A stretch of 64,000 nucleotides of DNA from an uncultured Acidiferrobacterales bacterium (GTDB lineage Bacteria > Pseudomonadota > Gammaproteobacteria > Acidiferrobacterales > UBA6901). A program made the position numbers and the translations under genes. The stretch covers positions 23,135-87,134 of the forward strand of contig CAYJBG010000001.1 of assembly GCA_964368085.1 (NCBI GenBank), written 5' to 3'. A model generated the notes under the pieces. That model saw nothing but the letters and a program-made list of their open reading frames with translations. It had not been told where the DNA came from and did not search any database. Positions within the stretch are counted from its first letter, which is position 1. The number at the start of each line of letters is the position of its first letter. This document shows positions 8,900 to 62,842 of the stretch, piece after piece.

Positions 8900-8915
8900 T
8901 GGGAGAGTCAACAAA

Positions 8916-50700: not shown

Positions 50701-53700
50701 GCCGCGCCAGGATCGTCCGGAGGCATTCGTACTTTCGGCGAAGAATCGCGAATCCCTGTTCGCCTATGCGGGGAAGATGGTCGAATTCCTCGATGAAGCG
50801 TCCGATCTGTCGCTCATGGACATCGTCTTCACCTCCCAGGTCGGCCGCACGCCGATGCAGGAGCGTCTGGTAGTCATCGCGTCGAACAAGTCGGCGCTGA
50901 AGGACAAGCTGCGGCAATGGCGGCGGGAATCCCAGACCGGCGACCTGCGGACGAAACGATCCGGCGTTCTCGCGATCGAGGATGTGATCGATGGCAGCAC
51001 CAAGGACACGCAATCGAGCGCCGGCGCACTGATCGAAGGCGATGCCGGCAAGGCGTTCTTGCAGCTGACGCTCGAGAAAAGAGATCTCGCGAAGCTGGCG
51101 AAACTGTGGGTCACCGGCCTGGAGATCGACTGGTCTGCGCTTTACCGCACGGAACATCCGAAGCGGGTGTCCCTGCCAACGTATCCGTTCGCGAGGGAGC
51201 GGTACTGGATCGATGCGCCCGTGGCGCTCGGCGCTCAGCCCGGACAAGAAGTGCGCAAGCAGATGCTGTATTACCGGACCGAATGGAGTTCGACCCAGCC
51301 CGTTGCCGCAAGCGATGGTCGAAGCGCTGCCGGTCCGCTGTTGTTCCTGGGTGCCGACGAACAACTGTTCGCGGAATTCGAGCGCCAAACCTGGGGGGCG
51401 GCGGTCGTAGCGGTGAAGTACGGAGACGGCTACCGGCAGCTCGGGCCGAACATCTATTGCGTCGACCATCAGTCGGAACGCGATTTTGTCTTGCTCATCG
51501 AGGATCTGAAATCGAAGGGCGCGATGCCCGGGACGATCGTCCACTTCGTCGACGAGACAGGCGAACTCCGACAGCAACTCGATCGAGGCGTTTTCGCACT
51601 TCACTACCTGTGCAAGGCGGTGATGAAGCAGAAGCCAAAAGACGCCGTGAGGATAGTCTCCTTGCAGAAGCAAGAAACCGCCGAACACACTGCGCTCCAT
51701 CGTGCCCTGGCCGGCTATCTCAAGAGCCTGGCGCTGGAGAATCCGAAATTCTCGTGGAAGGTCGTTTCCGTGGACGGCGAGCCTGCTGCCGAGGAAACCG
51801 CGCGCGCCGTGTCGGATGAGTTGCGCGACGCCAACTGGCGCGATGGCGAAGTGCGCTATCTCTACGAACAGCAGGGCGATCGCTTCGTTTCGCGCCGACA
51901 GGTCATGCAGATGAAGCGCTACGCGCCTCGCGCCATCGAGAAGGCGAAAGAGGCGAATGTGGCCGTCAAACAGAACGGCGTCTACATCGTCATCGGCGGC
52001 CTGGGCGGGCTGGGGTACATCTTCAGCGAGTACCTGGCGAAGCAATACGGTGCGAAATTGGTGCTGACTGGGCGCTCCGCGCTCGACGCCGATCTACACA
52101 CCAAGCTCGCTATGCTGAAGTCCTACAGCAACGACGTTATCTATGTTCAGGCGGACGTTTCTGTTCAAGAGCAAGCCGAGGCGGTCGTTAACGAGGCCAA
52201 ACGCAAGTTCTCGCGCATAAATGGCGTCATCCACAGTGCGGGCGTGAATCGGGATTCTTTCGTATTGAACAAGACGCGAGAAGAGATGGAGCCCGTGTTC
52301 GCCGCCAAGATCATGGGGACGATCAACCTCGATCGGGCGACCAAGGATGAAGACCTCGATCTGTTCGTCCTGTTCTCGTCGGTCGCCGGCGCGCTCGGAA
52401 ATATAGGGCAGTGCGACTACGCCTTCGCGAATAATTTCCTCGATGTGTACGCGGAGCAAAGGCAGGCATTAGTCTCATCGCGGGAACGATCTGGAAAAAC
52501 CCTGTCGATCAACTGGCCGTTTTGGGAAGACGGCGGGATGCGGATTTCCAAGAGCGATATCGACTTGATGGAGAGGCGTTCGGGCATCTCTCCGCTTCCA
52601 ACGGAAATCGGAATCCGGTATTGGGAAACCTTCTTGCAATCGGAGGAGACGCAAGGCATCGCCCTGTACGGCGATCCTTCGCAGATCGACGCCTACCTGT
52701 CGCGCAGCGCCACGGAACAGAAGCCTTCGGTCCGGTCTGAGATGCGAGCGGAGGATGCGCAGTCGCTGCGCGAAGCGACCGAAAACTACCTCAAAACCCT
52801 GCTGAGCGAGCAGATCAAGCTTTCTGCCGACCGCATCGACTCGCAGGAACGTTTCGAGGCCTTCGGCGTCGACTCAATGATGATCAGCCGGATCAACGCC
52901 GACCTGGAGCGCGATCTCGGCGACCTGCCAAAAACGCTGTTCTACGAGTACGCCACCATCGAGGAACTGGCCGGGTACTTGATCGAGGAGGCGCAGCCTG
53001 CATTGGTCCGGCGCTTCGACGTGCCGGCCTCCGTAAATACCGTCGTCAAGGAGGCCACAGCCACCGCCATCCCCGTCGCGAGAGCGCCGATCCACAGTCC
53101 AGAGAAAGAGTCGGAAGAAATCGCGATCATCGGCGTGCATGGCCACTTCCCCCGCTCCGAGTCCCTGGCGGAGTACTGGCGTAACCTGAGAGAAGGCCGA
53201 GACCTCATCGATCTGGTGCCGGAAAGCCGCTGGGATCTCCACGAATTCTTCGATGCCGATCCCGACAACGCCAAACAGGGAAAGATTTACTGCAAGTGGG
53301 GCGGATTCCTGGACGACTTCGACAAGTTCGACGCGGCGTTCTTCAGCGTCGCGCCGGAAGACGCGCGATTGATCGATCCCCAGGAGCGCTTGTTCATACA
53401 GTCCGTATGGGCGGCTGTCGAAGATGCGGGTTACACCAGAGACAGCCTGAAGAAGCGCTATCCCAAAGCCAAGAGCGCCGACGTCGGGGTTTTCGTCGGC
53501 GTGACGACCAACACGTACCATCTGCTGACGCCGGAAGAGTGGAATCGCGGCAACATGGTGACGCCCGGGTCGCTACCCTGGTCGATCGCCAACCGGGTGT
53601 CGTATTTCTTCGATTTCCAGGGTCCCAGCATGCCGGTCGACACCGCGTGCTCGTCGTCGCTGGCGGCGATCCATCTTGCCTGCGAAAGCCTGAAGAGGAA

Positions 53701-55876
53701 GGAATGCCAGGTGGCCGTCGCCGGCGGCGTCAATCTCTACTTGCACCCCTCGAAGTATCAATCGCTCTGCCGCAGACGCATGCTGGCGGTTGACGGCAAG
53801 TGCCGCAGTTTCGGCGATGGCGGCGACGGATTCATTCCAGGCGAGGGCGTGGGCACGTTTTTGCTCAAGCCCCTGGCAAGAGCGATCGAGGACCGCGACC
53901 ATATTTACGGCGTGGTCGCCGCCAGCGCGTGCGAACACAGCGGCCGTTCGAACGGGTATTCCGCACCCAACCCGAATTCGCAGGCGATTCTGATCGAACA
54001 AACCCTGAACAAGGCGGGTATCGACCCCGAGTCCATTGGATACGTCGAGGGGCACGGTACCGGAACGCAATTGGGCGACAGCCTCGAAATCGTTTCGTTG
54101 ACGCAAGCGTTCCGTAAGCGCACGCAGAAAAAACGCTACTGCCCACTGGGATCTGTGAAGGCGAACGTCGGCCATTCGGAATCCGCGGCGGGGATCGCCG
54201 GCGTGGCGAAAATACTGTTGCAGTTCAAGCATCGGGAGATCGCGCCGACCATTCACTCCGAAAAGGTCAATCCCAATATCGATTTCAAAAATTCTCCTTT
54301 CTATTTGCAGCACGAGCTATCGCCGTGGAACGCGCCGGCCGGGCATCCACGCCGGGCGATGATCAATTCCTTCGGCGCGGGCGGCGTCAATTCTTGTCTG
54401 ATCCTCGAAGAATACGAACGGCCCGAAAGCGATGAAATCGCCGCAGGAAAGGGGCCGTATCTCGTCGTTCTGTCGGCGAAAAACGAACGGCGGCTCAGGG
54501 AAAGCGCGACCCGCTTGCGCAATCATTTGCAGGCGAGAAATGACATCGCCCCCGGCGACATCGACCTCGGCGGGCTGTCCTATACCCTGCAGGTCGGGCG
54601 TGAAGCGATGGACGAAAGACTGGCCGTCGTCGTCACCAGCGTGGACGAGCTGTTGAACGAGTTGTCCGCGCTGGTGGCGAGCGCGGCCAGCGCTGCATCG
54701 TCGAAACTCGTCCTGGGCCGCGTCGAGCCGCACCGCAGGAAGAAGTCGCCCAAGCAAGACGAAAGAGAGCGAACGAAATCCCTGTTCGATCGCGGAGACC
54801 TCGATCCGCTCGCGCGGATGTGGGTCGAAGGGCACGCCATCGAATGGGGCGATTTCTATGGCAGAGACCGCCCTTACCGGTTGCCGCTTCCCACCTATCC
54901 GTTTGCCAGGGAACGTTACTGGGTGTCGGATTCGCCGCTCCCGGAGAAGCGGATGGCCGCCCAGCCAAAGATCACGAAGATCGCTCAATTGCATCCCTTG
55001 GTCTCCCTCAACGTATCGACCTTGAAGGAAGTGTGCTTCTCGTCTTTGTTGTCGGGCAGGGAATATTACGGGCGAGACCATCAAGTTAACGGGGAACTGT
55101 TCTTCCCCGGGGCCGGGTTCCTGGAGATTGCCTGCATCAGCGGGACGATCGCGAGCGAAAAGCCGGTGACTCGTATCGAAGATATCGTCTGGATCCAGCC
55201 GCTCAGGCTCACGACCGGGGACCATCTGGTCAAAACGTTCCTGAAGTCTAACGGCAACAGCACGGAGTATGTGATCGTCTCGTTCAACGATGACAACGAG
55301 CGGGTTTTGCATTCGGAAGGCCGGGTGCTCTACGGGACCGAGAGTAATGAGGCTCAGGCCGTCTATTCGATCCAGGAACTGAAGAATCGCGCCGGGAAGA
55401 CCGTGCAGGGATCGGATTGTTACAGGCAACTCGAAGGCTTCGGCTTGCGTTACGGCCCGTGCTTTCAGACCATCCAAAAGTTATACATCGGCGACAGTTT
55501 CGTGCTCTCCAAACTGAACCTCGCCGAAGAACTGAAAAACGACTTCGAGCAATACATCCTTCATCCATGCATCATCGATGCCGCCCTGCAGACGGTCATC
55601 GGTATGGCCGCGGAAGGGGAGCCGGATACGCCATATTTGCCTTTCGCTTTGGACGGAGTAGAGATCTTGCGGCCGTTGTCGGAGACCTGCTACGCCTATG
55701 TCGAGCATTCCGTATCGGAGCATCCTGCCAAGTCGGATATAAAGCAATTCAATATCCGGTTGCTGAGCGAAAGCGGCAGCGTGCTGGTGCGGCTGAACAA
55801 CTTCTACGTGCGGGCGCTTCGCAGCGCACGAAGCAGCGTGTGGGACGAGACTGACGGCCTTTTGTTGATGAAGTGA
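42032..55876 (+). CDS. Trans-AT polyketide synthase 3 (~4614 aa): DH-KR-ACP / KS-DH-KR-ACP / KS-KR-ACP / KS-DH (no terminal ACP or TE)
   Basis: Uninterrupted 13.8-kb ORF. The start is set at ATG 42032 (MNTMIDFIEYVV..., aagaaaga upstream) because ATG 42002 lies in the loop of a 14-bp hairpin. It has three KS domains and ends ...NNFYVRALRSARSSVWDETDGLLLMK directly after a DH. Confidence 0.95.
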   Translation: MNTMIDFIEYVVSELKGRRLSKENVLNLIRQFSGNSASSGKSSVIHPLLQRNISDIHQQRYRSSFDGDEFFLSDHQVVADGGDLLSVLPGVAYLEMAMVAVADALPDVSSAERVQLKDVVWIKPFVVAERKELFIALSAAGSDMITIEFEVFSEEFVDEGQVDEVVHCRGTATFGHCETPERLDIESLEKRAASGQINASAVYPAYLKMGMKFGPAHQAVSRVFRGEREVVARLALPSAVSGTLEEYALHPSLMDGALQAAIGLLGDLQQLPGRPSLPFALESLRAFSGCKQDMVAWIRHAKDSSPHDKVTKLDIDLCDDEGNICVQLRGFSSRTLSASPDIRKRPLSEKIGQQVGLILANPVWKRSEIENAGAASAAQHHVPQHHVLFCDLPGVSAARVQELMPNIRVHQVSAKSAGMAERFLETALSCFETVRKIIKAKTEVGARSGAFIHIAVPDELDANLLIGLSGLLKSAALENPDVQGQLLLVDGRVASDEMLSRLRAESGQAKDAIVRYREGVRQVLALQEFHASSATPEIAFKEGGVYLVTGGLGGLGTLFAKEILRQTVHAKIILTGRAELSEGVREKLKALAAEDAAERRIEYRALDLANPDQVRQLVADIEARYRQLNGIIHSAGMIADNFIAKKTPEEFAQVLAPKVFGAVNLDSASQDLDLDFLVLFSSGASIMGNVGQSDYAVANGFLDQFADYRNRLVVTGQRKGKTLSINWPLWQDGGMHMPQHDQDAMRETTGMHPMQTHTGIHAFYRCLEAQQQTVVIEGQLEKIRHILFDGHKAPSESAPQESTPAIGGAVEKPLGDLSEQTRDYLRKQFADLFKLPYSKVDSRAPLEKYGIDSILAMDLTRQLEKTFGSLSKTLFFEHQTIDELTDYFLRSHPSKLTSIFKVPNQAHAQVQVASSKSPADAPSPAALRLARTSATRKLRREHEPAAAAPIYSARNDEPIAIVGLSGRYPESTDIEAFWENLRDGKDCIVEVPKDRWDWREYYSEDRTTEGCHYSKWGGFITGVDEFDPLFFNIPPVDAELIDPQERLFLQHAWMAIEDAGHTRASLKVAHQEGQAGQVGVYVGVMYGEYQLFGAESSLQGKRMGIPQSYASIANRVSYFLNLHGPSMTLDSMCSSSLTAIHLACQDLKQGRTNLAIAGGVNVTIHPNKYFILSAGQFISSDGHCQSFGEGGDGYIAGEGVGAVVLKRLSEAEKDGNHIYGVIKGSALNHGGKTNGYSVPNPKAQASVIALALQEYGVDARHVSYIEAHGTGTKLGDPIEIAALTQVFREYTKERQFCAIGSAKSNIGHCESAAGIAGLTKVLLQMKNRMIVPSLHSAVLNPYIDFEASPFVVNQTLRAWDQPEVDGKRVPRIAGISSFGAGGSNAHLIVEEYPVYGSAGSASPCNELESPHARAIIPLSARTNGQLKRKVEDLLAFIKRHEYAIDLHSMAYTLQVGREAMDVRLAFVVGSIAQLVEKLESYSRDEQGIDQCFYAQVEQDKDSMSVLSQDDDMMEAIDKWIARKKLAKLADIWVKSLDIDWRKLHTDRKPSLISLPTYPFARDRYWVTRAVGRSATSRPGAPVLHPLLHTNTSDFFQQSYSSEFTGDESFLADHQIGADGGGKQKILPGVAYLEMVRAAVDLALPVRSGTRRLEIRNVAWVQPLTVDGKKRVSITLSPNGEGIVDFEVQTSEDDAQDQLIHCQGQVEVSSAARPNPLDIDALKARMTHGTMAPDGIYDAFRAMGIHYGPSFRCVATIHRGHDQLLAELNLPGGLDQNNNDYYILHPGLLDSALQASIGLVADLDSLPNQPSVPFALDSIVLVAPCASRMFAWVRQAEGGQPGNGIGKVDIDLCDQDGNLCALLTGLASRTMHTRADQDSIGLLLACPSWEEVAVASDSSAQAIVYRRHQVLLCDLPHLDPDRLQALIPGIEAKRLSVAGAENVAERYCLAALACFDELQSLLKNAPQEKTLFQLVIGHEGDDALFAGLSGLIDTARLENPNLVGQVVLTERNIDERMLAVQLRSSQARSGDSLFKHVGKAQSVLRWNPQEVRGAGSITFRNRGVYLITGGLGGLGVLFAREILERSEGAVVVLTGRSDFNAENRSTLEQLSAQLSIPAGRLVYRKLDLNRLNQVEALVAGIALEFGGLNGVIHGAGMNRDNFIINKTPAEFAQVLEPKVVGTTNLDLATQHTDLDFMVLFSSIASALGNVGQADYAAANGFMDQFAAYRNRLVGANRRRGKTLSINWPLWQEGGMQLDAVTRDLLTQTSGMLPLKTASGMQAFHRSLELDSGQALVIEGHLDRLRRALQNRHAPVVAEQPAVSATATHVDMSKLLEKTQRYLSDQFSSLLNIPPHEVDAKAPMEKYGMDSVLAMKLTNQLERTFGSLSKTLFFEYQTIASLAGYLVKAFPDIVQAKTGAEPSDATRHEPLLKAPVSNRLSPSIRSKGRFVAPAVQGDDEIAIIGVGGRYPLAKDLREFWENLKSGRDCITEIPQDRWDHAPFYDPARNRPGKTYSKWGGFISGVDQFDALFFNISPKEAELIDPQERLFIETVWETIEDAGYSKDAIAQNRVGVYVGVMWGQYELYGAISAGSGAPSSSFASIANRVSYFFNFQGPSLALDTMCSSSLTAMHLASEELRKGAIDVAIAGGVNVSIHPSKYLSLSQGNFASTDGRCRSFGAGGDGYVPGEGVGAVLLKPLEKAIRDGDQIYAVVKASAINHGGKTNGYTVPNPIAQSDLILDALNKAKVDPATIGYIETHGTGTSLGDPIEITGLVKAFDGAGQQGQSRGKQFCPIGSVKSNIGHLESAAGIAAVTKVLLQLKHQQLVPSLHAERLNPHIDFPDTPFYVQTSLEDWKRPAGHPRRVGVSSFGAGGSNAHLILEEFVDTRGPAPRQDRPEAFVLSAKNRESLFAYAGKMVEFLDEASDLSLMDIVFTSQVGRTPMQERLVVIASNKSALKDKLRQWRRESQTGDLRTKRSGVLAIEDVIDGSTKDTQSSAGALIEGDAGKAFLQLTLEKRDLAKLAKLWVTGLEIDWSALYRTEHPKRVSLPTYPFARERYWIDAPVALGAQPGQEVRKQMLYYRTEWSSTQPVAASDGRSAAGPLLFLGADEQLFAEFERQTWGAAVVAVKYGDGYRQLGPNIYCVDHQSERDFVLLIEDLKSKGAMPGTIVHFVDETGELRQQLDRGVFALHYLCKAVMKQKPKDAVRIVSLQKQETAEHTALHRALAGYLKSLALENPKFSWKVVSVDGEPAAEETARAVSDELRDANWRDGEVRYLYEQQGDRFVSRRQVMQMKRYAPRAIEKAKEANVAVKQNGVYIVIGGLGGLGYIFSEYLAKQYGAKLVLTGRSALDADLHTKLAMLKSYSNDVIYVQADVSVQEQAEAVVNEAKRKFSRINGVIHSAGVNRDSFVLNKTREEMEPVFAAKIMGTINLDRATKDEDLDLFVLFSSVAGALGNIGQCDYAFANNFLDVYAEQRQALVSSRERSGKTLSINWPFWEDGGMRISKSDIDLMERRSGISPLPTEIGIRYWETFLQSEETQGIALYGDPSQIDAYLSRSATEQKPSVRSEMRAEDAQSLREATENYLKTLLSEQIKLSADRIDSQERFEAFGVDSMMISRINADLERDLGDLPKTLFYEYATIEELAGYLIEEAQPALVRRFDVPASVNTVVKEATATAIPVARAPIHSPEKESEEIAIIGVHGHFPRSESLAEYWRNLREGRDLIDLVPESRWDLHEFFDADPDNAKQGKIYCKWGGFLDDFDKFDAAFFSVAPEDARLIDPQERLFIQSVWAAVEDAGYTRDSLKKRYPKAKSADVGVFVGVTTNTYHLLTPEEWNRGNMVTPGSLPWSIANRVSYFFDFQGPSMPVDTACSSSLAAIHLACESLKRKECQVAVAGGVNLYLHPSKYQSLCRRRMLAVDGKCRSFGDGGDGFIPGEGVGTFLLKPLARAIEDRDHIYGVVAASACEHSGRSNGYSAPNPNSQAILIEQTLNKAGIDPESIGYVEGHGTGTQLGDSLEIVSLTQAFRKRTQKKRYCPLGSVKANVGHSESAAGIAGVAKILLQFKHREIAPTIHSEKVNPNIDFKNSPFYLQHELSPWNAPAGHPRRAMINSFGAGGVNSCLILEEYERPESDEIAAGKGPYLVVLSAKNERRLRESATRLRNHLQARNDIAPGDIDLGGLSYTLQVGREAMDERLAVVVTSVDELLNELSALVASAASAASSKLVLGRVEPHRRKKSPKQDERERTKSLFDRGDLDPLARMWVEGHAIEWGDFYGRDRPYRLPLPTYPFARERYWVSDSPLPEKRMAAQPKITKIAQLHPLVSLNVSTLKEVCFSSLLSGREYYGRDHQVNGELFFPGAGFLEIACISGTIASEKPVTRIEDIVWIQPLRLTTGDHLVKTFLKSNGNSTEYVIVSFNDDNERVLHSEGRVLYGTESNEAQAVYSIQELKNRAGKTVQGSDCYRQLEGFGLRYGPCFQTIQKLYIGDSFVLSKLNLAEELKNDFEQYILHPCIIDAALQTVIGMAAEGEPDTPYLPFALDGVEILRPLSETCYAYVEHSVSEHPAKSDIKQFNIRLLSESGSVLVRLNNFYVRALRSARSSVWDETDGLLLMK
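44900..49250 (+). other. PKS module 8: KS8-DH8-KR8-ACP8
   Basis: KS8 ~44900-46206 (SMCSSS, Cys 45427). DH8 ~46775-47642 (LADHQIGADGGGKQKILPGVAYLEM; HPGLLDSALQ). KR8 ~47670-48960 (GVYLITGGLGGLG ~48214). ACP8 ~49028-49250 (GMDSVLAMKL). Confidence 0.85.
49399..52985 (+). other. PKS module 9: KS9-KR9-ACP9
   Basis: KS9 ~49399-50680 (TMCSSS, Cys 49898; ETHGTGT; NIGHLE). KR9 ~51260-52690 (GVYIVIGGLGGLG ~51976; HSAGVNRD). ACP9 ~52765-52985 (FGVDSMMISRI). No DH. Confidence 0.85.
53114..55825 (+). other. PKS module 10 (incomplete in this window): KS10-DH10, no carrier or release domain
   Basis: KS10 ~53114-54416 (TACSSS, Cys 53648; EGHGTGT; NVGHSE). DH10 ~54989-55825 (GRDHQVNGELFFPGAGFLEI; HPCIIDAALQ). 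The ORF stops at 55876, about 17 codons later. Confidence 0.85.
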
Positions 55877-55885
55877 TTGCCGGGG

Positions 55886-56356
55886 ATGAGTGTAATGAGC
55901 AAAGCAGCAATAAAATCCAGGATGCCACCGCCGCTCCCATTTTTATTGGGCGTGGTTGCAGGACTAGTGTGTGACTGGTTTTGGCCTTGGCGGATCACGT
56001 GCTATCCCTATGCGTTCACTGTCGGAATCTTGCTAATCGGGGCGGTAGTCGTTTTGCTGATGGCCTTGACGCGAGCGTTCAAAAAGCACGGCACGCCCGC
56101 GGATCCGGTAAAAGAAACTACAGTGATCATTGACGCTGGTCTGTTCAGGTTATCGCGCAATCCGGCTTACGTTACCGTGGCGGTTCTACAAGCGGCTGTC
56201 GGATTTATTCTCAACAACGCATGGATATTACTGTTGATATTACCGGCGATGATCGTCATTCATTATGTTGTTGTCCTTCGCGAGGAAGCTTACTTGGAGG
56301 CTACGTTCGGCAACGAGTACCTGAAGTACAAGACGCGGGTTCGGCGTTGGATATAG
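55886..56356 (+). CDS. ICMT/PEMT-family integral-membrane methyltransferase
   Basis: About 4-5 predicted TM helices. Family signature GLFRLSRNPAYV...VLREEAYLEATFGNEYLKYKTRVRRWI. Alternative starts are TTG 55877 (abutting the PKS3 stop at 55874-55876) and ATG 55895. Confidence 0.75.
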   Translation: MSVMSKAAIKSRMPPPLPFLLGVVAGLVCDWFWPWRITCYPYAFTVGILLIGAVVVLLMALTRAFKKHGTPADPVKETTVIIDAGLFRLSRNPAYVTVAVLQAAVGFILNNAWILLLILPAMIVIHYVVVLREEAYLEATFGNEYLKYKTRVRRWI

Positions 56357-56367: not shown

Positions 56368-57075
56368 ATGGATCGACATCACATAGGCGATGAAAAACAC
56401 AAATTCTCGCCGCAAGTATTCTTGCTTAAGGTTTCGCGCCAGATGATGAAGAACAATAATTATCTGGTCGTCGATCCTGCCAGTCATCAAGCGGTGGTCG
56501 TGGATCCAGCCTGGCAGATAGAGAAAATCCAGTCCGCATTGGCGAGCACCCGGTCGACTTTGAGCGGCATCTTGATCACGCATACCCATTTCGATCACAT
56601 AGATTTGGCGAAACCGCTGGCGGATTTCTATAACTGCCCCATATGGATGTCCAAGCAGGAGATTGAGGCTTCTGGATTCGCCGCCAGACAGTTGATCGCG
56701 ATAGACGAAAACCCATGGTCCGTAGGGGAGATGTGGATACAGCCGATACTGACTCCGGGTCATACCCCCGGCTGCATCTGCTATCTGATCGGAGACAATT
56801 TGTTTACCGGCGATGTGTTATTCGCTGAAGGCTGTGGGATTTGCAATGATATCCAAGCCGCTTACGAGATGTTCGCGAGCCTCGAACGGCTGAAGTCCCA
56901 CTTGAAACCGCATACGTACATTTTTCCCGGTCACACCTACATGAGACCACCCGGTCAGAGATTCTCGGATGTGCTGGGTAACAACATATACCTTCATTTC
57001 GACGACAAGGAATCATTCGCCGCTTTCCGTTTGAGGAAGGGGCAGAGCGAACGCAAGTTACTGGATTTCCGTTAG
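56368..57075 (+). CDS. Metallo-beta-lactamase-fold hydrolase, glyoxalase-II (thiolesterase)-like
   Basis: ggag lies before ATG 56368. Motifs: ILITHTHFDHID (HxHxDH), LTPGHTPGCICY, FTGDVLFAEGCG, FPGHTY. The track start at 56221 overlaps the methyltransferase and was rejected. Confidence 0.8.
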   Translation: MDRHHIGDEKHKFSPQVFLLKVSRQMMKNNNYLVVDPASHQAVVVDPAWQIEKIQSALASTRSTLSGILITHTHFDHIDLAKPLADFYNCPIWMSKQEIEASGFAARQLIAIDENPWSVGEMWIQPILTPGHTPGCICYLIGDNLFTGDVLFAEGCGICNDIQAAYEMFASLERLKSHLKPHTYIFPGHTYMRPPGQRFSDVLGNNIYLHFDDKESFAAFRLRKGQSERKLLDFR

Positions 57076-57201: not shown

Positions 57202-58461
57202 ATGAACATGGTTGGAATCGAAGCGATGAACCTCTTTGCCGGTACAGGCTTTGTGGATGTAACGAAGCTTGCTAGGCATCGAAAGCTGGACATGAGTCGG
57301 TTTGAAAATTTGATGATGAAGGAGAAAAGCGTCGCCTTGCCCTATGAGGATCCCATCACTTTTGCAGTCAATGCAGCGAAGCCAATTATTGATGCATTGA
57401 TTCCCGAAGAGAAAGACCGGATCGAGATGGTGATTACTTGCACGGAATCTGCGTTCGATTTCGGAAAATCCATGAGCACCTACTGTCACGATGTGCTCGG
57501 GCTGAATCGCAACTGCCGTCTGTTTGAGCTGAAGAACGCCTGTTACTCGGGCGTTGCTGGCCTACAGATGGCGATCAATTTCGTCTTGTCCCAAACATCG
57601 CCGGGCGGCAAGGCATTGGTCATCGCCACCGACGTTTCCCGTTTCATGGTCGAAGAAGGTGGTGACGCGCTTTCGGCCGACTGGTCCTTCGCCGAGCCGA
57701 GCGGTGGATCCGGGGCTGTTGCAATGTTGATCAGTAACAAGCCCTACGTGTTCCAGATCGATGTGGGCGCGAACGGTTATTACGGTTACGAAGTGATGGA
57801 CACCTGTCGGCCTTCTGCGGACACTGATGCGGGGGACACGGATTTGTCCTTGCTTTCGTATTTGAATTGCTGCGAGAACGCCTACCTCGAGTATCAGAAG
57901 CGCGTCGACGGCGCTCATTTCGGAGAAACCTTCGGTTACTTGGCCTATCACACGCCGTTCGGCGGAATGGTCAAGGGCGCTCACCGCAACATCATGCGCA
58001 AGTTTGTCAAAGCTAAACCGGCGGACATTGAAGATGATTTCCAGCGTCGTGTGACGCCCGGTCTCATCCATTGCCAGCGGGTAGGCAATATCATGGGCGC
58101 GACCGCCGCGCTCGCCCTTGCCAGCACCATCGATAACGGAGAATTCGAAACGCCTAAACGCGTCGGGGTCTTCTCCTACGGTTCGGGCTGTTGTTCGGAA
58201 TTCTTTAGCGGCGTTGTCAGAAAAGAAGGCCAGGAACGTCTGCGAGCGCTCAAGATCAAGGAAAGACTGGACTACAGGTATGAGCTGTCGATGGAGCAGT
58301 ACGACCGCCTGCTCGAGAAGAGTCGGGAACTGAAATTTGGTACGCGCAACATGGTTCCAGACATGGAATTTATCCCGAAGGCCAGAACGACCCTTAACCA
58401 ACCAACCTTGCTACTGAAACAGATCAAAGAGTTTCATCGAGAGTACGAATGGGTATGCTGA
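57202..58461 (+). CDS. HMG-CoA synthase-like beta-branching enzyme (HMGS; PksG/CurD/MupH type)
   Basis: ggagg lies before ATG 57202. Active-site motif ELKNACYSGVAG (Cys codon 57541), plus YHTPFGGMVKGAH and GNIMGA. 419 aa. Confidence 0.92.
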   Translation: MNMVGIEAMNLFAGTGFVDVTKLARHRKLDMSRFENLMMKEKSVALPYEDPITFAVNAAKPIIDALIPEEKDRIEMVITCTESAFDFGKSMSTYCHDVLGLNRNCRLFELKNACYSGVAGLQMAINFVLSQTSPGGKALVIATDVSRFMVEEGGDALSADWSFAEPSGGSGAVAMLISNKPYVFQIDVGANGYYGYEVMDTCRPSADTDAGDTDLSLLSYLNCCENAYLEYQKRVDGAHFGETFGYLAYHTPFGGMVKGAHRNIMRKFVKAKPADIEDDFQRRVTPGLIHCQRVGNIMGATAALALASTIDNGEFETPKRVGVFSYGSGCCSEFFSGVVRKEGQERLRALKIKERLDYRYELSMEQYDRLLEKSRELKFGTRNMVPDMEFIPKARTTLNQPTLLLKQIKEFHREYEWVC

Positions 58462-59234
58462 ATAGCGCCTACGAAACGATCCGAGTGAAGTTTGAAGACG
58501 ACATTTGTTTCGTTCAAATCCATCGACCGGAATTCAACAACGCGATCAACAATCGCCTAATCGAAGAGTTCGGCGACGCCCTTCATGTGTGTGAAGGGCC
58601 CGCGAAAGTCGTGGTGGTGGAGGGGCTACCGGACGTTTTTTGCTCCGGTGCGGATTTCAAAGAGATTCAAACGAGATTCGACGATGAAAGCCCAAGCCAG
58701 GAGCAGGATCCAGAACCACTGTACGACTTATGGCATCGGCTCGCTTCGGGACCCTATATCACCATCGCCCATGTACGGGGCAGGGCCAATGCCGGCGGCA
58801 TCGGCTTCGTAGCCGCGTGTGATATCGTTCTTAGCGAGAACAAGGCGGCATTCAGCTTGTCCGAACTGCTGTTCGGCTTGATGCCGGCATGTGTTCTGCC
58901 ATTCCTTATTCGTCGGATTGGATTCGCGAAGGCCAATTATATGACGCTGACGACTCAGCCGATTCCCGCGAGTCAAGCGCGGGAGTGGGGATTGGTCGAT
59001 GCCTGCGAAGATAACAGCGAGAATCTGTTACGCAAGCAACTGTTGAGGCTCAGGCGTCTCGGTCTGGACGGAATCGCGCGATACAAGCGCTATGCCAACA
59101 GTCTGGACGACGCGCTTAGTGCATCCAAGCTGAAAGCGCTTGAAGCTAACGTGGAAGTGTTTTCCGATCCGGACAATCTTCAGAAGATCGCCCGCTACGC
59201 AAGGACAGGAAAATTCCCCTGGGAGGCCGATTGA
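58449..59234 (+). CDS. Discrete enoyl-CoA hydratase-like ECH1 (dehydratase, PksH/CurE type)
   Basis: Crotonase fold with VVVVEGLPDVFCSGADF and HVRGRANAGGIGFVAACD. It overlaps the HMGS stop by 13 nt. Confidence 0.85.
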   Translation: MGMLNSAYETIRVKFEDDICFVQIHRPEFNNAINNRLIEEFGDALHVCEGPAKVVVVEGLPDVFCSGADFKEIQTRFDDESPSQEQDPEPLYDLWHRLASGPYITIAHVRGRANAGGIGFVAACDIVLSENKAAFSLSELLFGLMPACVLPFLIRRIGFAKANYMTLTTQPIPASQAREWGLVDACEDNSENLLRKQLLRLRRLGLDGIARYKRYANSLDDALSASKLKALEANVEVFSDPDNLQKIARYARTGKFPWEAD

Positions 59235-59983
59235 TGTCAGACCAGATCATCGAAACCAAGGGGCTGGGCTCCGGGATCGTCCAAGTGAAGATGCAGGATC
59301 GTGTCAATAAGAACGCGTTCACCAACGAACTGATTGATGGTCTGACCGAGGCGTTCGAGGACATCAAGGCCCGCACCGACTATAAAGTCGTGATCCTGAC
59401 GGGCTACGATAATTATTTCTCCAGCGGTGGCACGCAGGAAGGACTGCGCGATCTATTCGAGGGGAAGATCAAGTTTACGGACAAAGACCTGTACAGCCTA
59501 GCGCTGAACTGCCCGATTCCTGTGATCGCGGCCATGCAGGGCCATGGTATCGGCGGCGGCTTCGTCATGGGGATGTTCGCCGATTTCGTGATTCTGGCGA
59601 GGCAAAGTATCTACACGACCAACTTCATGAAGTATGGCTTCACGCCAGGCATGGGGTCGACCTTTATCCTGCCAAAAAAGCTGGGGTTCAGTCTGGCCGA
59701 GGAGATGATGCTGACCGCGTCGACCTATCGCGGAGAAGAGCTTCAAAATCGTGGCGTTCCTTTCCCCGTTATTCCTCGAGAAAATGTGCTAGAGCACGCC
59801 TTCGAGCTGGCCAAGAGCCTAGCTGAAAAACCTAGGGTGTCGCTGGTCACGCTGAAAGATCATCTGGTCACGCCGCTTAGGGAGCAACTACCAAAGTTTA
59901 TCGAGCAAGAGATCGCCATGCACGAGCTCACGTTCCACCAGCTGGAGGTCAAGGATCGCATTGAGGCCTTCTTCGGAAAGTGA
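59234..59983 (+). CDS. Discrete enoyl-CoA hydratase-like ECH2 (decarboxylase, PksI/CurF-ECH2 type)
   Basis: The ATG overlaps the ECH1 stop (TGATG). Motifs: VVILTGYDNYFSSGGT, AAMQGHGIGGGF, EIAMHELTF. Confidence 0.88.
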   Translation: MSDQIIETKGLGSGIVQVKMQDRVNKNAFTNELIDGLTEAFEDIKARTDYKVVILTGYDNYFSSGGTQEGLRDLFEGKIKFTDKDLYSLALNCPIPVIAAMQGHGIGGGFVMGMFADFVILARQSIYTTNFMKYGFTPGMGSTFILPKKLGFSLAEEMMLTASTYRGEELQNRGVPFPVIPRENVLEHAFELAKSLAEKPRVSLVTLKDHLVTPLREQLPKFIEQEIAMHELTFHQLEVKDRIEAFFGK

Positions 59984-60020: not shown

Positions 60021-60260
60021 ATGAGTAAAGAGAAAATCTTTGAGATCATCGTTCGCCATACCCGTGAGGTGGTTCCGAGATTGGAAGATCATCAGTTTCA
60101 GCCGAGCGATTCACTGAGGGCGCTGGGCGCCAATTCGGTCGACCGTGCCGACATCATCATGATGACTTTGGAGTCCTTGGCTCTGAACATTCCTTTGATT
60201 GAAATAGCCAAAGCCGACAACATCGGGGAATTGGCCGGTATTTTCCATGAGAAGTCCTAG
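60021..60260 (+). CDS. Discrete donor ACP of the HMGS cassette (AcpK/MacpC type)
   Basis: 79-aa acidic protein with LRALGANSVDRADIIMM (Ser attachment site). ggag lies upstream. It sits between ECH2 and the decarboxylating KS. Confidence 0.8.
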   Translation: MSKEKIFEIIVRHTREVVPRLEDHQFQPSDSLRALGANSVDRADIIMMTLESLALNIPLIEIAKADNIGELAGIFHEKS

Positions 60261-61515
60261 TTGCTTCGACATCGTGATCACTGGTGTCGGCGTCACCTCG
60301 GCCATCGGTCAGGGAAAGGCAGAATTTCTCCCGGCGTTATTAGAGGGTCGGCATCGTTTCGATGCGATGCGTCGCCCTGGCCGGCAACTCCCTGCCTTAT
60401 CGCGCGATGAAATGCCGGAAGCGGGACAGGCCTTTGGCTTCATAGGCGCCGAGATTCCTGCGTTGCCAATACCGGAGTCGATTCCCAGGAGCTTGCTGCG
60501 GACGGCGTCGTTTTCAGGCCAGGTTGCCCTTGCAACCTTGCACGAGGCTTGCGAAGACGCGAGGTTGGATAAGGTCGCGCCTGAGCGCATCGGCTTGGTT
60601 GTCGGCGGCTCCAACGTCCAGCAAAGGGAGTTGATACAGGTCCACGACGCCTATCGGGGCCGTGAGCAATTCCTGCGTCCAACGTACGGAATGTCCTTTA
60701 TGGACAGCGACCTGTGCGGGCTGTGTACGGAGGCGTTCGGCATACGGGGATTCGCCTACACGGTCGGTGGGGCTTCCGCCAGCGGGCAAGTCGCCGTTCT
60801 TGAGGCCATCCATGCAGTCGAATCCGGGAGAGTGGAGGTTTGTATCGCGATGGGTGCGCTCATGGATATCTCCTACTGGGAGTGCCAAGGATTGCGCTCT
60901 CTGGGCGCCATGGGATCGGACCGTTACGCCAATGAACCCGCGTTAGCGAGCCGCCCTTTTGACCGTGATCGCGATGGGTTCATTTTTGGCGAGTCGTGCG
61001 GCGTCGTGGTGATAGAACGACTGGAGTCTGCGCAAAGATTGGAGCGACCGCCGTATGCTCGCTTGTCCGGCTGGGCGATGGGCATGGATGCAAACAGGAA
61101 TCCCAATCCTTCTATCGGGGGCGAGGTCGCCGCGATCAAGGCGGCTCTGGAACGCGCTGGGCTTTCGTCGATGGACATCGACTACATCAACCCTCATGGC
61201 ACAGGCTCGACGATCGGAGATGTTACGGAACTCGAAAGCATTCGTCAGTGCGGACTTGGTCACGCCTATCTCAACGCGACGAAATCTATTATCGGGCACG
61301 GCCTCAGCGCTGCAGGTGTCGTCGAGATGATCGCAATCCTGCTTCAAATGAAAGAGGGCAGACTACACCCGACGAGGAACCTGGAGAACCCTATCGACTC
61401 TTCGTTCAAGTGGGTTGGGCGCCAGGCGGTCTCTCACACGATAGAAAACGCGCTTAACCTCAGCATGGGGTTCGGCGGGGTCAATACTGCGGTTTGTATA
61501 CAAAAGTATTCTTGA
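60247..61515 (+). CDS. Non-elongating decarboxylating ketosynthase (KS-DC; PksF/MupG/CurC type)
   Basis: Discrete (FabF-type) KS fold in which the active-site Cys is replaced by Ser (VGGASASG, Ser codon 60775). Both His residues are retained (NPHGTGS; KSIIGHGLSAAG). It overlaps the ACP by 14 nt. Confidence 0.88.
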   Translation: MRSPSCFDIVITGVGVTSAIGQGKAEFLPALLEGRHRFDAMRRPGRQLPALSRDEMPEAGQAFGFIGAEIPALPIPESIPRSLLRTASFSGQVALATLHEACEDARLDKVAPERIGLVVGGSNVQQRELIQVHDAYRGREQFLRPTYGMSFMDSDLCGLCTEAFGIRGFAYTVGGASASGQVAVLEAIHAVESGRVEVCIAMGALMDISYWECQGLRSLGAMGSDRYANEPALASRPFDRDRDGFIFGESCGVVVIERLESAQRLERPPYARLSGWAMGMDANRNPNPSIGGEVAAIKAALERAGLSSMDIDYINPHGTGSTIGDVTELESIRQCGLGHAYLNATKSIIGHGLSAAGVVEMIAILLQMKEGRLHPTRNLENPIDSSFKWVGRQAVSHTIENALNLSMGFGGVNTAVCIQKYS

Positions 61516-61690: not shown

Positions 61691-62842
61691 ATGAAGGCGT
61701 ATATGTTCCCCGGCCAGGGTTCACAGTTCAAAGGTATGGGCGGTGACCTGTTCGACCGCTTCAAAGAATTGACCAAGAAGGCCAACAGTATCCTGGGCTA
61801 CTCCATCAAGCAGCTTTGTGTGGAAGACCCGAGGAACGAACTCAGCAAGACCCAGTTCACCCAGCCTGCTCTTTACGTCGTGAACGCCTTGTCATATTTA
61901 AAGAAGATCGAAGAAACCGGGCAGACTCCGGACTTCGTGATTGGACACAGCCTGGGCGAGTTCAATGCTCTTCTGGCGGCTGAATGCTTCGATTTCGAAA
62001 CCGGTTTGAAGTTGGTCCAGAAGCGTGGCGAACTGATGCGTCAGGTGTCCAATGGGGGAATGGCGGCTGTACTGAATGCCACGAAAGATGAAATCGAAGA
62101 AGTACTAAAGGAAAACGGGTTGGCCAACGTCTACTTGGCCAATTACAACACGCCATCACAGATTGTGCTCTCGGGCCCGGCGGACGAGATCGCCAAAGCG
62201 GAGAAATTCTTCCAGGAGGGAAAGAGACGTTATTACCCGCTCGCCACGAGCGGCGCGTTCCACTCCGCCTTCATGCAAGAGGCGATGGAGAAGTTCAGAG
62301 AGTACCTCAAGGGATTCGATTTTGCTGATCAGAAAATTCCGGTCATTGCCAACGTTACCGCAAGGCCCTATCAGAACAACGCCGTTTTGGAGACGTTGTC
62401 GAGCCAGATAGCGAGTACAGTCCGATGGTCCGAGAGCATCCAGTACCTGTTGGCGCTCGGCGTCAGCCACGGCGAGGCGGTGGAGTTTGAGGAGTTTGGC
62501 CCTGGGGATGTTCTGACGAAACTGGTCTACACGATTAAGGTGCAGACTCCGGAATCTGTACTTCATCAGATTATCAAGGAAGAACAGCCGGATGAAAAGG
62601 TCGCGCATGAGGTTGGGAATAAGGTCGAGAACGACGTGCCAGGCAAACTCACCGACGCCGAAGAGAGGGTGATCGCCTGGAACAAGATGTATCCGATTGG
62701 GAAGAAAGTTAGATCTACGATCGCGGATTACGATGATCTTGAAACTAGGACCGAGGCCGTCTTACTGTTCGGGCACAGGGCCGCAGTTTATGTGAAGGGA
62801 TACAATGGCTACTTCGATTTGAACGAGTTAACACCGGTCTGA
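61691..62842 (+). CDS. Discrete trans-acting acyltransferase (malonyl-CoA:ACP transacylase type) with ~95-aa C-terminal extension
   Basis: ggagg lies before ATG 61691. Motifs: FPGQGSQ, GHSLGEF (Ser codon 61949), TSGAFHS (malonyl-type). The AT fold ends near GPGDVLTKLV (~62540). The remainder has no motif I recognise. The track start at 61589 was rejected. Confidence 0.9.
   Translation: MKAYMFPGQGSQFKGMGGDLFDRFKELTKKANSILGYSIKQLCVEDPRNELSKTQFTQPALYVVNALSYLKKIEETGQTPDFVIGHSLGEFNALLAAECFDFETGLKLVQKRGELMRQVSNGGMAAVLNATKDEIEEVLKENGLANVYLANYNTPSQIVLSGPADEIAKAEKFFQEGKRRYYPLATSGAFHSAFMQEAMEKFREYLKGFDFADQKIPVIANVTARPYQNNAVLETLSSQIASTVRWSESIQYLLALGVSHGEAVEFEEFGPGDVLTKLVYTIKVQTPESVLHQIIKEEQPDEKVAHEVGNKVENDVPGKLTDAEERVIAWNKMYPIGKKVRSTIADYDDLETRTEAVLLFGHRAAVYVKGYNGYFDLNELTPV

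What the first reader, a model, noticed from the sequence alone, without database searches (positions are those of the whole stretch)
55877..56356. ICMT/PEMT-type membrane methyltransferase abutting the PKS3 stop codon
Seen: a ~155-aa polytopic membrane protein carries the isoprenylcysteine-carboxyl/phospholipid methyltransferase signature (SRNPAY...REEAYLEATFGNEYLKYKTRV). Its possible starts lie 1-19 nt after the PKS3 stop. Established: polyketide O-methylation is normally done by soluble class I SAM methyltransferases, and ICMT-family enzymes methylate carboxylates of lipophilic substrates at the membrane. Inference: it may methyl-esterify a carboxylate of the lipophilic product. That could be the terminal acid or a beta-branch carboxylate left undecarboxylated, analogous in outcome to the bryostatin vinyl methyl esters. 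If so, late tailoring would be tied to the membrane and possibly to export.
Basis: partly seen in the sequence, partly recalled or inferred. Interest (0 to 1): 0.6.

Follow-up and report, generated by a model that had tools for sequence, protein, structure and literature searches.

The report
Membrane methyltransferase inside a polyketide operon
A small membrane-embedded methyltransferase gene sits directly after the last giant polyketide synthase gene, in the same place in a dozen related clusters from uncultured bacteria, so it probably methylates the greasy product at the membrane, but which atom it methylates is unknown.

Summary
An ORF at 55877/55886/55895–56356 (+) encodes a 153–159-aa protein with four membrane helices. 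It passes Pfam PEMT (47.8 bits, cut-off 25), keeps the G…RNPxY…EE SAM-binding motif set, and its model folds like Ma-ICMT (4A2N).

It lies 0–18 nt after the PKS3 stop and 11 nt before a glyoxalase-II-like MBL hydrolase gene. No promoter or terminator signal lies between them.

Among relatives of at least 54% identity with readable context, 12 distinct loci sit in the same trans-AT PKS cluster type. The usual order is PKS→MT→MBL→HMGS→ECH→ECH→ACP→KS→AT. Seven are stand-alone. None of about 70 more distant relatives is near a PKS.

A cluster-dedicated membrane tailoring methyltransferase is likely. A terminal methyl ester is plausible: I found no TE and no ACP after the last KS-DH, an MBL hydrolase is adjacent, and MMPL/LolA-like export genes are present. 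But the nucleophile is not determined. The superfamily also methylates N, phosphate and hydroxyl groups, and its polyketide precedent (BpsB) O-methylates hydroxyls. A β-branch ester is disfavoured.

It is a new variant of a known kind, of moderate interest.

The parts
55886..56356 (+). ICMT/PEMT-superfamily integral membrane methyltransferase, the finding. 156 aa from ATG 55886. Alternative starts: TTG 55877, ATG 55895, ATG 55922.
   Evidence: ORF. Pfam PEMT 47.8 bits. Family alignment with invariant G88, R94-N95-P96, Y98, E136-E137. PDB profile hit 4a2n. AF2 model and Foldseek.
42002..55876 (+). PKS3, a trans-AT PKS: DH-KR-ACP-KS-DH-KR-ACP-KS-KR-ACP-KS-DH. It ends without an ACP or TE.
   Evidence: Motif scan. 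Pfam on 1000-aa chunks.
56368..57075 (+). MBL-fold hydrolase, glyoxalase-II-like and SolJ-like. HxHxDH motif at aa 72. Starts 11 nt after the methyltransferase stop, with GGAG upstream.
   Evidence: Pfam Lactamase_B. NCBIfam SolJ 275.5 bits and GloB 98.8 bits, both below their curated cut-offs (350 and 200.8). PDB relatives 4ysb and GloB. Motif and junction.
57202..58461 (+). HMG-CoA-synthase-type β-branching enzyme (HMGS).
   Evidence: Pfam HMG_CoA_synt_N and _C. 84-87% identical in orthologous clusters.
58449..59234 (+). Free-standing crotonase, assigned as ECH1 (dehydratase type).
   Evidence: Pfam ECH_1. NCBIfam NF005498 394 bits.
59231..59983 (+). Free-standing crotonase, assigned as ECH2 (PksI-like decarboxylase type).
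   Evidence: Pfam ECH_1. NCBIfam NF005496 385.9 bits.
60021..60260 (+). Small free-standing ACP of the β-branching cassette (GANSVD).
   Evidence: Translation. Called as a 79-aa gene in L001 and L008, with a weak PP-binding hit in L008.
60247..61515 (+). Free-standing ketosynthase of the β-branching cassette.
   Evidence: Pfam ketoacyl-synt. NCBIfam NF005490 614.8 bits.
61691..62842 (+). Trans-acting acyltransferase (FabD-like).
   Evidence: Pfam Acyl_transf_1. TIGR00128 334.8 bits. Gene call of 383 aa.
26459..41941 (+). PKS2: KR-ACP-KS-DH*-ECH-ECH-ACP-ACP-KS-DH-KR-cMT-ACP-KS.
9219..26462 (+). PKS1: KS-DH-KR-ACP-KS-DH*-ECH-ECH-ACP-KS-DH-ACP-ACP-KS-DH.
6603..9182 (+). AMP-binding ligase (6603-8138), SDR (8159-8899) and small ACP (8916-9182), a putative starter-unit set. 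In L006/L007 the methyltransferase gene follows this ACP directly.
   Evidence: Pfam. ACP translation. L006/L007 gene order.
10..6294 (+). MMPL/RND transporter (10-1815), LolA-like protein (1823-2779), DUF1302-like protein (2794-4185), GMC oxidoreductase (4097-5494) and a 281-aa unknown (5449-6294). Putative export and envelope-delivery genes of the cluster.
   Evidence: Pfam. The same genes in the same order in L006, with 36-66% identity.

Best explanation
The gene encodes a four-helix integral inner-membrane SAM-dependent methyltransferase of the ICMT/PEMT superfamily. It is co-transcribed, and probably translationally coupled, with the last trans-AT PKS gene and with the MBL-fold hydrolase that follows it.

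The N-terminus, the TM2-TM3 loop (G88, RNPAY) and the C-terminal EE helix carry the catalytic motifs and many basic residues. By the positive-inside rule they face the cytoplasm (inferred).

Proposed sequence, all steps inferred:
1. The assembly line shows no thioesterase and no ACP after its last KS-DH. The glyoxalase-II-like MBL hydrolase cleaves the final acyl thioester and yields a free lipophilic acid.
2. The acid partitions into the inner leaflet of the membrane.
3. The methyltransferase converts its carboxylate into a methyl ester.
4. The now neutral lipid is passed to the cluster's MMPL, LolA-like and DUF1302-like proteins for delivery to the envelope or the outside.

Shown: family, fold, motifs, operon packing and conserved synteny. 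Inferred: that the polyketide is the substrate (about 0.7), and that the methylated atom is the terminal carboxylate oxygen (about 0.4).
For: Identity:
- Pfam PEMT above cut-off.
- Invariant G88, R94-N95-P96-x-Y98, E136-E137, F144-G145 and Y151 in 28 homologues.
- 4a2n and 5v7p found by sequence profile and by fold. Model pLDDT 86.7.

Operon:
- 0-18 nt from the PKS3 stop and 11 nt to the MBL start, with GGAG upstream of the MBL start.
- No promoter or terminator hit in either junction.

Conservation:
- PKS→MT→MBL→HMGS→ECH→ECH→ACP→KS→AT recurs in L004, L008, L009/L013, L014, L015, L017 and L093.
- L005, L095 and L098 are cut contigs that show the part of this order they cover.
- Methyltransferase identity is 54-76%, and 4-nt stop/start overlaps are frequent.
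- In L006/L007 the gene has moved but stays in the same cluster type, after the ligase-SDR-ACP genes.
- None of about 70 relatives below 50% identity has a PKS, HMGS or MBL neighbour.

Free acid:
- No TE appeared in the PKS scans or among the annotated downstream genes.
- The MBL's nearest characterised relatives are hydroxyacylglutathione (thioester) hydrolases.

Membrane and export: MMPL, LolA-like and DUF1302-like genes belong to the cluster.
Against: - No residue-level evidence identifies the nucleophile. In the HMM alignment to beetle ICMT, the position of Arg173 falls on a hydrophobic residue of this family. By my recollection, Arg173 is one of the arginines said to position the substrate carboxylate (role of arginines: PMC9539859).
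- The only documented polyketide-associated members (BpsB, DquB) act on hydroxyls.
- Seven close homologues (54-68% identity) are stand-alone, share no neighbours and show no group-specific residue differences. In a neighbour-joining tree without support values, the four of them that were included fall in one subclade nested inside the PKS-linked clade.
- The role of the MBL is untested. Deleting its homologue solJ gave no phenotype in the solanimycin producer (PMC9765074).
- The product of this cluster is unknown.
- The order in which the PKS proteins act and the identity of the last carrier protein are not settled.
Confidence: 0.42

Rival explanations
1. Same enzyme and same operon logic, but it O-methylates a hydroxyl or enol of the polyketide (for example a β-keto enol, pyrone or secondary alcohol). 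This would parallel BpsB, which acts on alkylpyrones and alkylresorcinols.
For: BpsB and DquB are ICMT-like membrane methyltransferases encoded next to type III PKS genes. BpsB methylates free hydroxyls of phenolic lipids (PMC9827899). The PKS has several KR-containing modules that leave hydroxyls. The carboxylate-positioning Arg of ICMT is not aligned to a basic residue here.
Against: No type III PKS or obvious pyrone-forming terminus is present. The tight, often overlapping pairing with a thioester-hydrolase-like MBL in 10 clusters fits an acid better. The cluster also has a separate large class I (PRMT-like) methyltransferase that could serve other positions.
Confidence: 0.2
2. The enzyme does not act on the polyketide. 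It methylates a common membrane lipid or small molecule, for example to remodel the envelope or protect the producer, and was recruited into the operon for co-expression.
For: Seven close homologues (54-68% identity) occur alone in unrelated contexts in Myxococcota, Planctomycetota and other MAGs. They share no neighbours and show no residues that distinguish them from the PKS-linked copies. The superfamily is dominated by lipid-modifying and housekeeping members.
Against: 12 distinct clusters keep the gene, usually translationally coupled between PKS3 and the MBL. When it moves, it stays inside the cluster. The stand-alone genomes could carry the cluster elsewhere, which I could not check.
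Confidence: 0.15
3. It methyl-esterifies a β-branch carboxylate that escapes decarboxylation, giving a bryostatin-like vinyl methyl ester.
For: There are three candidate β-branching sites: two DH*-ECH-ECH-ACP modules and one DH-ACP-ACP module. There is one HMGS cassette.
Against: Two free-standing crotonase genes follow the HMGS (NF005498 394 bits, NF005496 385.9 bits). I assign them as ECH1 dehydratase and ECH2 decarboxylase from memory of the PksH/PksI pair. In-line ECH pairs are also present, so decarboxylation is expected. From my own knowledge, the bryostatin esters are made by in-line class I O-MT domains on ACP-bound intermediates. A membrane enzyme acting on a carrier-bound intermediate is harder to picture.
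Confidence: 0.07
4. Protecting-group logic like BioC/BioH. The methyltransferase masks a carboxylate (for example of a dicarboxylate starter) as a methyl ester so that the chain can be processed, and the adjacent MBL hydrolase later removes it.
For: The methyltransferase-hydrolase pair is conserved and translationally coupled. In L006/L007 the methyltransferase sits next to the ligase-SDR-ACP starter genes.
Against: The MBL resembles thioester hydrolases and persulfide dioxygenases, not carboxylesterases. There is no evidence for a dicarboxylate starter. This is purely an analogy.
Confidence: 0.05

Closest known systems
Ma-ICMT (PDB 4A2N) and eukaryotic ICMT/Ste14 (PDB 5V7P)
   Same: An all-helical integral membrane SAM methyltransferase fold. 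They are the best sequence-profile and Foldseek matches. They share the C-terminal motif set G…R-H/N-P-x-Y…EE…FG…Y…Y, and the cofactor site is predicted on the cytoplasmic side.
   Different: Four helices here, against 5 in Ma-ICMT (PMC9539859) and more in the eukaryotic enzymes (6-8 by that review). Asn replaces His in RHPxY. Scores are below the Pfam ICMT cut-off and the NCBIfam equivalog cut-off. No CaaX-protein context. The Arg173 position is not conserved in the alignment.
BpsB, DquB and SrsB: ICMT-like methyltransferases encoded with type III PKSs
   Same: A membrane methyltransferase of the same superfamily, encoded immediately downstream of a polyketide synthase gene. It tailors a lipophilic polyketide that ends up in the membrane (PMC9827899). 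SrsB is added from my own knowledge.
   Different: The partner here is a roughly 47-kb trans-AT modular assembly line with a β-branching cassette, not a type III PKS. The known substrates are phenolic or pyrone hydroxyls. Orthology to BpsB was not tested because I had no BpsB sequence.
PEMT/Opi3 phospholipid N-methyltransferases (Pfam PF04191)
   Same: The best-scoring Pfam family. They share N-P-x-Y rather than H-P-x-Y, and the GxG/EE SAM motifs. The human PEMT motifs are from my own knowledge.
   Different: There is no phospholipid biosynthesis context. The PKS-operon location is specific to this clade.
LmtA, the lipid A 1-phosphate methyltransferase of Leptospira (TIGR04571)
   Same: A weak family-level hit (21.1 bits). 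It shows that the fold can methylate an anionic lipid head group at the inner membrane.
   Different: The score is far below the cut-off of 325 bits, and the substrate is different.
Bryostatin-type vinyl methyl esters made by in-line O-MT domains
   Same: A possible common outcome: a methyl ester on a trans-AT polyketide made with an HMGS cassette.
   Different: Those are soluble class I domains within the PKS and act where the ECH2 decarboxylase is absent (my own knowledge). Here decarboxylases are present and the methyltransferase is a separate membrane protein.
SolJ (solanimycin cluster) and PksB/BaeB (bacillaene cluster) MBL-fold hydrolases
   Same: The neighbouring gene is SolJ-like (275.5 bits against NF041804, below its cut-off of 350). 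MBL hydrolases of unknown role accompany other trans-AT PKS clusters (PMC9765074; PksB from my own knowledge).
   Different: No methyltransferase is mentioned in the solanimycin cluster paper (0 occurrences of the word). The conserved pairing of a membrane methyltransferase with an MBL seen here appeared in none of the papers my open-access searches returned.

Membership tests
ICMT/PEMT superfamily of integral membrane SAM methyltransferases | Significant match to a family profile above the curated threshold | tested here: met
   Pfam PEMT PF04191 at 47.8 bits against a cut-off of 25, E=2.2e-12.
ICMT/PEMT superfamily of integral membrane SAM methyltransferases | C-terminal motif set: G-x-[GFY], R-[HN]-P-x-Y, a hydrophobic stretch, then EE and FG..Y..Y | tested here: met
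   G88, R94-N95-P96-A97-Y98, E136-E137, F144-G145, Y148 and Y151. All but Y148 (at least 90% conserved) are invariant in 28 homologues. They align to the same motifs of 4a2n and 5v7p. His is replaced by Asn, as in PEMT.
ICMT/PEMT superfamily of integral membrane SAM methyltransferases | Polytopic α-helical membrane fold like Ma-ICMT | tested here: met
   AF2 pLDDT 86.7 with four long helices plus a C-terminal helix. Foldseek top hits are 4a2n, 8xku_G and 5v7p with prob 0.99-1.00 and TMq 0.60-0.69. Hydropathy profile.
ICMT/PEMT superfamily of integral membrane SAM methyltransferases | SAM binding and methyl transfer activity | not testable with these tools
   This needs biochemistry. Only motif conservation is available.
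Protein-S-isoprenylcysteine O-methyltransferase in the strict sense (Ste14/ICMT) | Equivalog-level sequence match | tested here: not met
   NCBIfam NF040696 at 45.5 bits against a cut-off of 160. Pfam ICMT at 21.7 bits against a cut-off of 24.
Protein-S-isoprenylcysteine O-methyltransferase in the strict sense (Ste14/ICMT) | Active-site arginine that positions the substrate carboxylate | tested here: inconclusive
   In the HMM alignment the Arg173 position of 5v7p falls on a hydrophobic profile position. A conserved R66/K69/K70/H71 patch lies five residues further on. The alignment in this helix is uncertain, and I could not inspect the model coordinates.
BpsB/SrsB-type polyketide-lipid methyltransferases | Encoded in an operon with a type III PKS | tested here: not met
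   The partner genes are trans-AT type I PKSs. No type III PKS was seen in the window or in the 9 kb downstream.
BpsB/SrsB-type polyketide-lipid methyltransferases | Sequence orthology to BpsB | not tested
Tailoring gene of a trans-AT PKS cluster | Conserved co-location with the PKS genes across related clusters, and absence of such linkage in more distant homologues | tested here: met
   12 PKS-linked loci against 7 stand-alone loci within the clade of at least 54% identity. None of about 70 relatives below 50% identity is PKS-linked.
Tailoring gene of a trans-AT PKS cluster | Effect on the structure of the product | not testable with these tools
   The product is unknown and the organisms are uncultured (Hainich groundwater metagenome).

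The most novel reading that the evidence does not exclude
The methyltransferase and the MBL hydrolase together form a thioesterase-free, membrane-coupled off-loading device for a modular PKS. The MBL hydrolyses the last acyl thioester. The ICMT-like enzyme caps the acid as a methyl ester in the inner leaflet. That neutralisation is the hand-over step to an MMPL, LolA-like and DUF1302-like route that places the polyketide in the outer membrane. The product would then be an envelope lipid rather than a secreted antibiotic.
Probability: 0.2. Interest if true: 0.7.

Novelty: new variant of a known kind. Interest (0 to 1): 0.45.

Why it matters
Methylation of modular polyketides is almost always assigned to soluble class I enzymes or in-line domains. 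A conserved integral membrane methyltransferase, translationally coupled to the last PKS gene and to an MBL hydrolase, would add a new type of tailoring and release step. It would also link assembly-line chemistry physically to the membrane and to envelope export.

The practical consequences are three:
- Genome-mining tools would need a rule for PF04191/PF04140 genes inside PKS clusters.
- The enzyme is a candidate biocatalyst for esterifying lipophilic acids.
- This orphan cluster family, from Lysobacteraceae, Steroidobacteraceae and groundwater bacteria, may make a membrane-resident polyketide lipid.

The effect is modest until a product is known.

Tried and rejected
- **Start at ATG 55922 (the 144-aa public gene call).** Rejected, because the K-S-R-M-P-P-P segment upstream of it is conserved.
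- **Fusion of the methyltransferase to the PKS in the high-GC Lysobacter loci.** The long open frame upstream is in a different frame from the DH hit, so there is no fusion.
- **Looking for a known, named cluster.** A plasmid tblastn gave only relatives below 45% identity. Four literature searches gave no modular-PKS precedent: ICMT + trans-AT, phospholipid methyltransferase + trans-AT, ICMT/BpsB/SrsB + polyketide and Ste14 + PKS. The Legionella paper returned concerns the icmT secretion gene, not the methyltransferase.
- **Residue roles in ICMT.** The Nature 2018 ICMT paper is not held. 'RHPxY' occurs in no held paper.
- **A shared neighbour that could explain the stand-alone subclade.** None found.
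- **Residues that separate PKS-linked from stand-alone copies.** None found.
- **Fold search against afdb50.** The library was unavailable.
- **Literature on MBL thioesterases in trans-AT systems.** Nothing useful.
- **A fourth PKS gene or a TE downstream.** The 9 kb after the window holds ATs, three small ORFs, a PRMT-like protein and a PPTase. None of these genes is a PKS, and none with a domain hit is a TE.
Full report
**1. The observation**

The ORF is real. The ORF listing gives 55877..56356 (+), 159 aa from TTG. The PKS3 stop (TGA, 55874-55876) is followed by TTG at 55877, ATG at 55886 and ATG at 55895. Public gene calls for the identical contig start at 55922 (144 aa) or at 55895 (153 aa). 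In an alignment of 28 homologues, conservation begins with K/R-S-R/K-M-P-P-P, upstream of 55922, and the 78%-identical P0002 also starts MSVMSK. I therefore take 55886 or 55895 as the start.

The quoted signature is present, and the family assignment is well above chance:
- Pfam PEMT PF04191 scores 47.8 bits (cut-off 25, E=2.2e-12). Pfam ICMT PF04140 scores 21.7 bits, just under its cut-off of 24.
- NCBIfam 'isopcys_mtase' reaches only 45.5 bits against a cut-off of 160, so this is not an orthologue of true isoprenylcysteine methyltransferase. LmtA gives a weak 21.1 bits.
- A family profile finds Ma-ICMT (4a2n, E=2.9e-12) and beetle ICMT (5v7p, 7.5e-8) among PDB sequences.
- An AlphaFold2 model (pLDDT 86.7, pTM 0.80) has helices at 19-35, 43-71, 96-111, 115/121-144 and 146-154. 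Its best Foldseek hits are 4a2n, 8xku_G and 5v7p (prob 0.99-1.00, TMq 0.60-0.69).
- Hydropathy agrees with a polytopic membrane protein.
- Invariant residues across the 28 sequences are G88, R94-N95-P96, Y98, E136-E137, Y139-L140, F144-G145 and Y151. They align to the G…RHPxY…EE…FG…Y motifs of the solved ICMTs. From my own knowledge, these correspond to the GxG and EE AdoMet-binding motifs of PEMT and the RHPxY-hyd-EE region of Ste14. The His→Asn change is the PEMT-like version.

**2. Surroundings**

The window is part of a 95-kb contig from a Hainich groundwater metagenome. All the cluster genes lie on the + strand, in this order:
- MMPL transporter, LolA-like protein, DUF1302-like protein, GMC oxidoreductase and a 281-aa unknown.
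- AMP-binding ligase, SDR and a small ACP (8916-9182).
- PKS1, PKS2 and PKS3.
- The methyltransferase, then an MBL hydrolase.
- HMGS, two crotonases (ECH1 and ECH2 by my assignment), an ACP, a KS and an AT.
- Beyond the window: small ORFs, a second AT, an 879-aa TPR plus PRMT-like class I methyltransferase, and a PPTase on the opposite strand.

Pfam on 1000-aa chunks gives these domain orders:
- PKS1 = KS-DH-KR-ACP-KS-DH*-ECH-ECH-ACP-KS-DH-ACP-ACP-KS-DH
- PKS2 = KR-ACP-KS-DH*-ECH-ECH-ACP-ACP-KS-DH-KR-cMT-ACP-KS
- PKS3 = DH-KR-ACP-KS-DH-KR-ACP-KS-KR-ACP-KS-DH

This is a trans-AT assembly line with split modules and β-branching sites. I found no thioesterase domain in it. PKS3 ends in KS-DH without a carrier protein, and that last KS keeps its catalytic Cys and His motifs.

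The gene after the methyltransferase is an MBL-fold hydrolase with HxHxDH. It matches the SolJ model at 275.5 bits and GloB at 98.8 bits, both below their curated cut-offs. Its nearest solved relatives are 4ysb and glyoxalase II thioester hydrolases.

No promoter-like or terminator-like site falls in the PKS3/MT or MT/MBL junctions. GC content drops only mildly, from about 0.55-0.60 to about 0.48-0.50.

**3. Related loci**

The first protein search returned a clear clade of 53-78% identity (P0002-P0025), with the next relatives at 44% or less. I read contexts from exact-protein look-ups, a scan of 185,579 species genomes and a metagenome scan. Each locus was then screened by tblastn with the window's own proteins.

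Twelve distinct loci of the clade lie in the same cluster type.
- L004, L008, L009=L013 (a Steroidobacteraceae MAG), L014 (Lysobacter sp. BL-A-41-H3), L015, L017 (Lysobacteraceae MAGs) and L093 show the full order PKS→MT→MBL→HMGS→ECH→ECH→ACP→KS→AT. L005, L095 and L098 are cut contigs that show the part of this order they cover.
- PKS/MT spacing ranges from a 4-nt overlap to an 8-nt gap. MT/MBL often overlaps by 4 nt (L008, L093, L095).
- In L006/L007 the gene sits instead after MMPL…ligase-SDR-ACP, at the 5' end of the same cluster type. In L007 an IS element separates it from the first KS.

Seven loci of the clade are stand-alone: L010, L016 (Myxococcota), L018 (Planctomycetota), L094, L096 and L099/L100.
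- Their neighbours are unrelated to polyketide synthesis and are not shared among them.
- In a neighbour-joining tree without support values, the four that were included (L010, L016, L018 and P0006=L094) fall in one subclade nested within the PKS-linked sequences.
- No column separates the two groups.

None of the roughly 70 relatives below 50% identity has a KS, HMGS or MBL neighbour within 10 kb. The link to the PKS is therefore specific to this clade and conserved, but it is not obligatory.

**4. Mechanism**

Shown: a membrane protein of the ICMT/PEMT fold with an intact cofactor motif set, packed into the operon, with synteny conserved down to about 54% identity.

Inferred from the positive-inside rule and the ICMT structures: the N-terminus (K, K, R), the TM2-TM3 loop (R66, K69, K70, H71, G88, RNPAY) and the C-terminal EE helix face the cytoplasm. 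A lipophilic substrate would enter sideways from the inner leaflet.

The best-supported chain of events is as follows. The MBL hydrolase releases the finished chain as a free acid, since I could find no TE. The acid partitions into the membrane. The methyltransferase esterifies it. The neutral product is exported by the MMPL, LolA-like and DUF1302-like proteins.

My estimates are about 0.95 that it is a membrane methyltransferase, about 0.7 that the cluster product is its substrate, and about 0.4 that the target is the terminal carboxylate.

The rivals are:
- **Hydroxyl or enol O-methylation.** BpsB, the one documented polyketide-linked member of the superfamily, does this (PMC9827899).
- **A generic membrane substrate.** The stand-alone copies support this.
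- **A β-branch ester.** This is disfavoured because the free-standing crotonase pair (NF005498 394 bits, NF005496 385.9 bits) and the in-line ECH pairs are present.
- **A BioC/BioH-like protecting-group cycle with the MBL as esterase.** This rests on analogy only.

Sequence alone cannot name the nucleophile. The superfamily methylates carboxylate (ICMT), amine (PEMT), phosphate (LmtA) and hydroxyl (BpsB) groups. In the alignment to 5v7p, the arginine that by my recollection positions the carboxylate (Arg173) falls on a hydrophobic position. A conserved basic patch lies five residues away.

**5. Comparison with the known, and novelty**

It works like an ICMT-superfamily lipid methyltransferase, and at the level of logic like BpsB: a membrane methyltransferase encoded behind a PKS gene. 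It is a member of the superfamily (Pfam PEMT). It is not a member of the isoprenylcysteine methyltransferase equivalog, and it is not in a type III PKS operon.

Searches of 7.7 million open-access papers and bioRxiv found no paper combining ICMT or phospholipid methyltransferase with trans-AT PKS, and a search combining Ste14 with PKS gene clusters returned nothing relevant. The solanimycin cluster paper, which describes the SolJ homologue of the neighbouring MBL, never uses the word methyltransferase. This is absence of evidence in a partial library, not proof.

I rate it a new variant of a known kind. The enzyme class and its use on polyketide lipids are known. Its conserved integration into a modular trans-AT line, coupled to an MBL hydrolase and envelope-export genes, is not.

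**6. Verdict**

Interest is 0.45. The finding is a concrete, testable and unusual tailoring and release arrangement in an orphan cluster family, but it rests on genomics only and the product is unknown.

Noticed in passing
window 42002-55876 (end of PKS3), plus L011:11228-17009: PKS3 ends in KS-DH with no carrier protein, although that KS has intact Cys and His motifs. No thioesterase domain was found in the three PKSs, and no annotated TE or PKS gene lies in the 9 kb downstream. How and from which ACP the chain is released is open. The free SDR plus ACP at 8159-9182 could complete the last module in trans instead of serving the starter.
   Followed up: partly
window about 16650-18730 (PKS1 aa 2477-3169) and about 31310-33290 (PKS2 aa 1618-2278): Two modules carry in-line tandem crotonase (ECH-ECH) domains after a degenerate DH, in addition to the free-standing ECH1/ECH2 genes at 58449-59983. 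The cluster therefore has a doubled set of β-branch processing enzymes.
   Followed up: partly
L011:13394-16033 (about 3 kb beyond the window end): An 879-aa protein with a TPR-like N-terminus and a PRMT-like class I methyltransferase region (VLDIGAGCG; Pfam PRMT_C E=2.5e-9). A homologue is also present next to the cluster in L093. Its role is unknown, and it is a second stand-alone methyltransferase in the cluster.
   Followed up: partly
window 10-6294: MMPL/RND, LolA-like, DUF1302-like and GMC oxidoreductase genes precede the PKS genes. They recur in the same order in L006. The set resembles envelope-lipid export systems such as those of aryl-polyene clusters (a comparison from memory), which hints that the product is an outer-membrane lipid.
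   Followed up: partly
L007:2346-4646: In one sample an IS (DDE transposase, minus strand) is inserted between the methyltransferase gene and the first PKS gene of the rearranged cluster version.
   Followed up: no
L010:9842-10300: The public 99-aa 'fragment' P0026 is a gene-calling artefact. A full-length ORF (MALAGRSRMPPPLPC…) is open in the DNA.
   Followed up: yes
L099:1790-2244 and L100:4089-4549: The stand-alone copy in these two nearly identical contigs seems to be split between two reading frames (a 110-aa ORF plus a separate 3' match). It may be a frameshifted pseudogene or an assembly error.
   Followed up: no
PDB 8xku chain G: The best PDB sequence hit of the family profile is 'AtTam46', a subunit of the Arabidopsis chloroplast Ycf2-FtsHi motor complex. 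It carries an ICMT-like C-terminal domain with RHPIY and EE motifs.
   Followed up: no
window 9219-55876, minus strand: Many long antisense ORFs (up to 938 aa, for example 14229-17045) lie inside the PKS genes. They are the usual open frames of GC-rich coding DNA, not genes.
   Followed up: no
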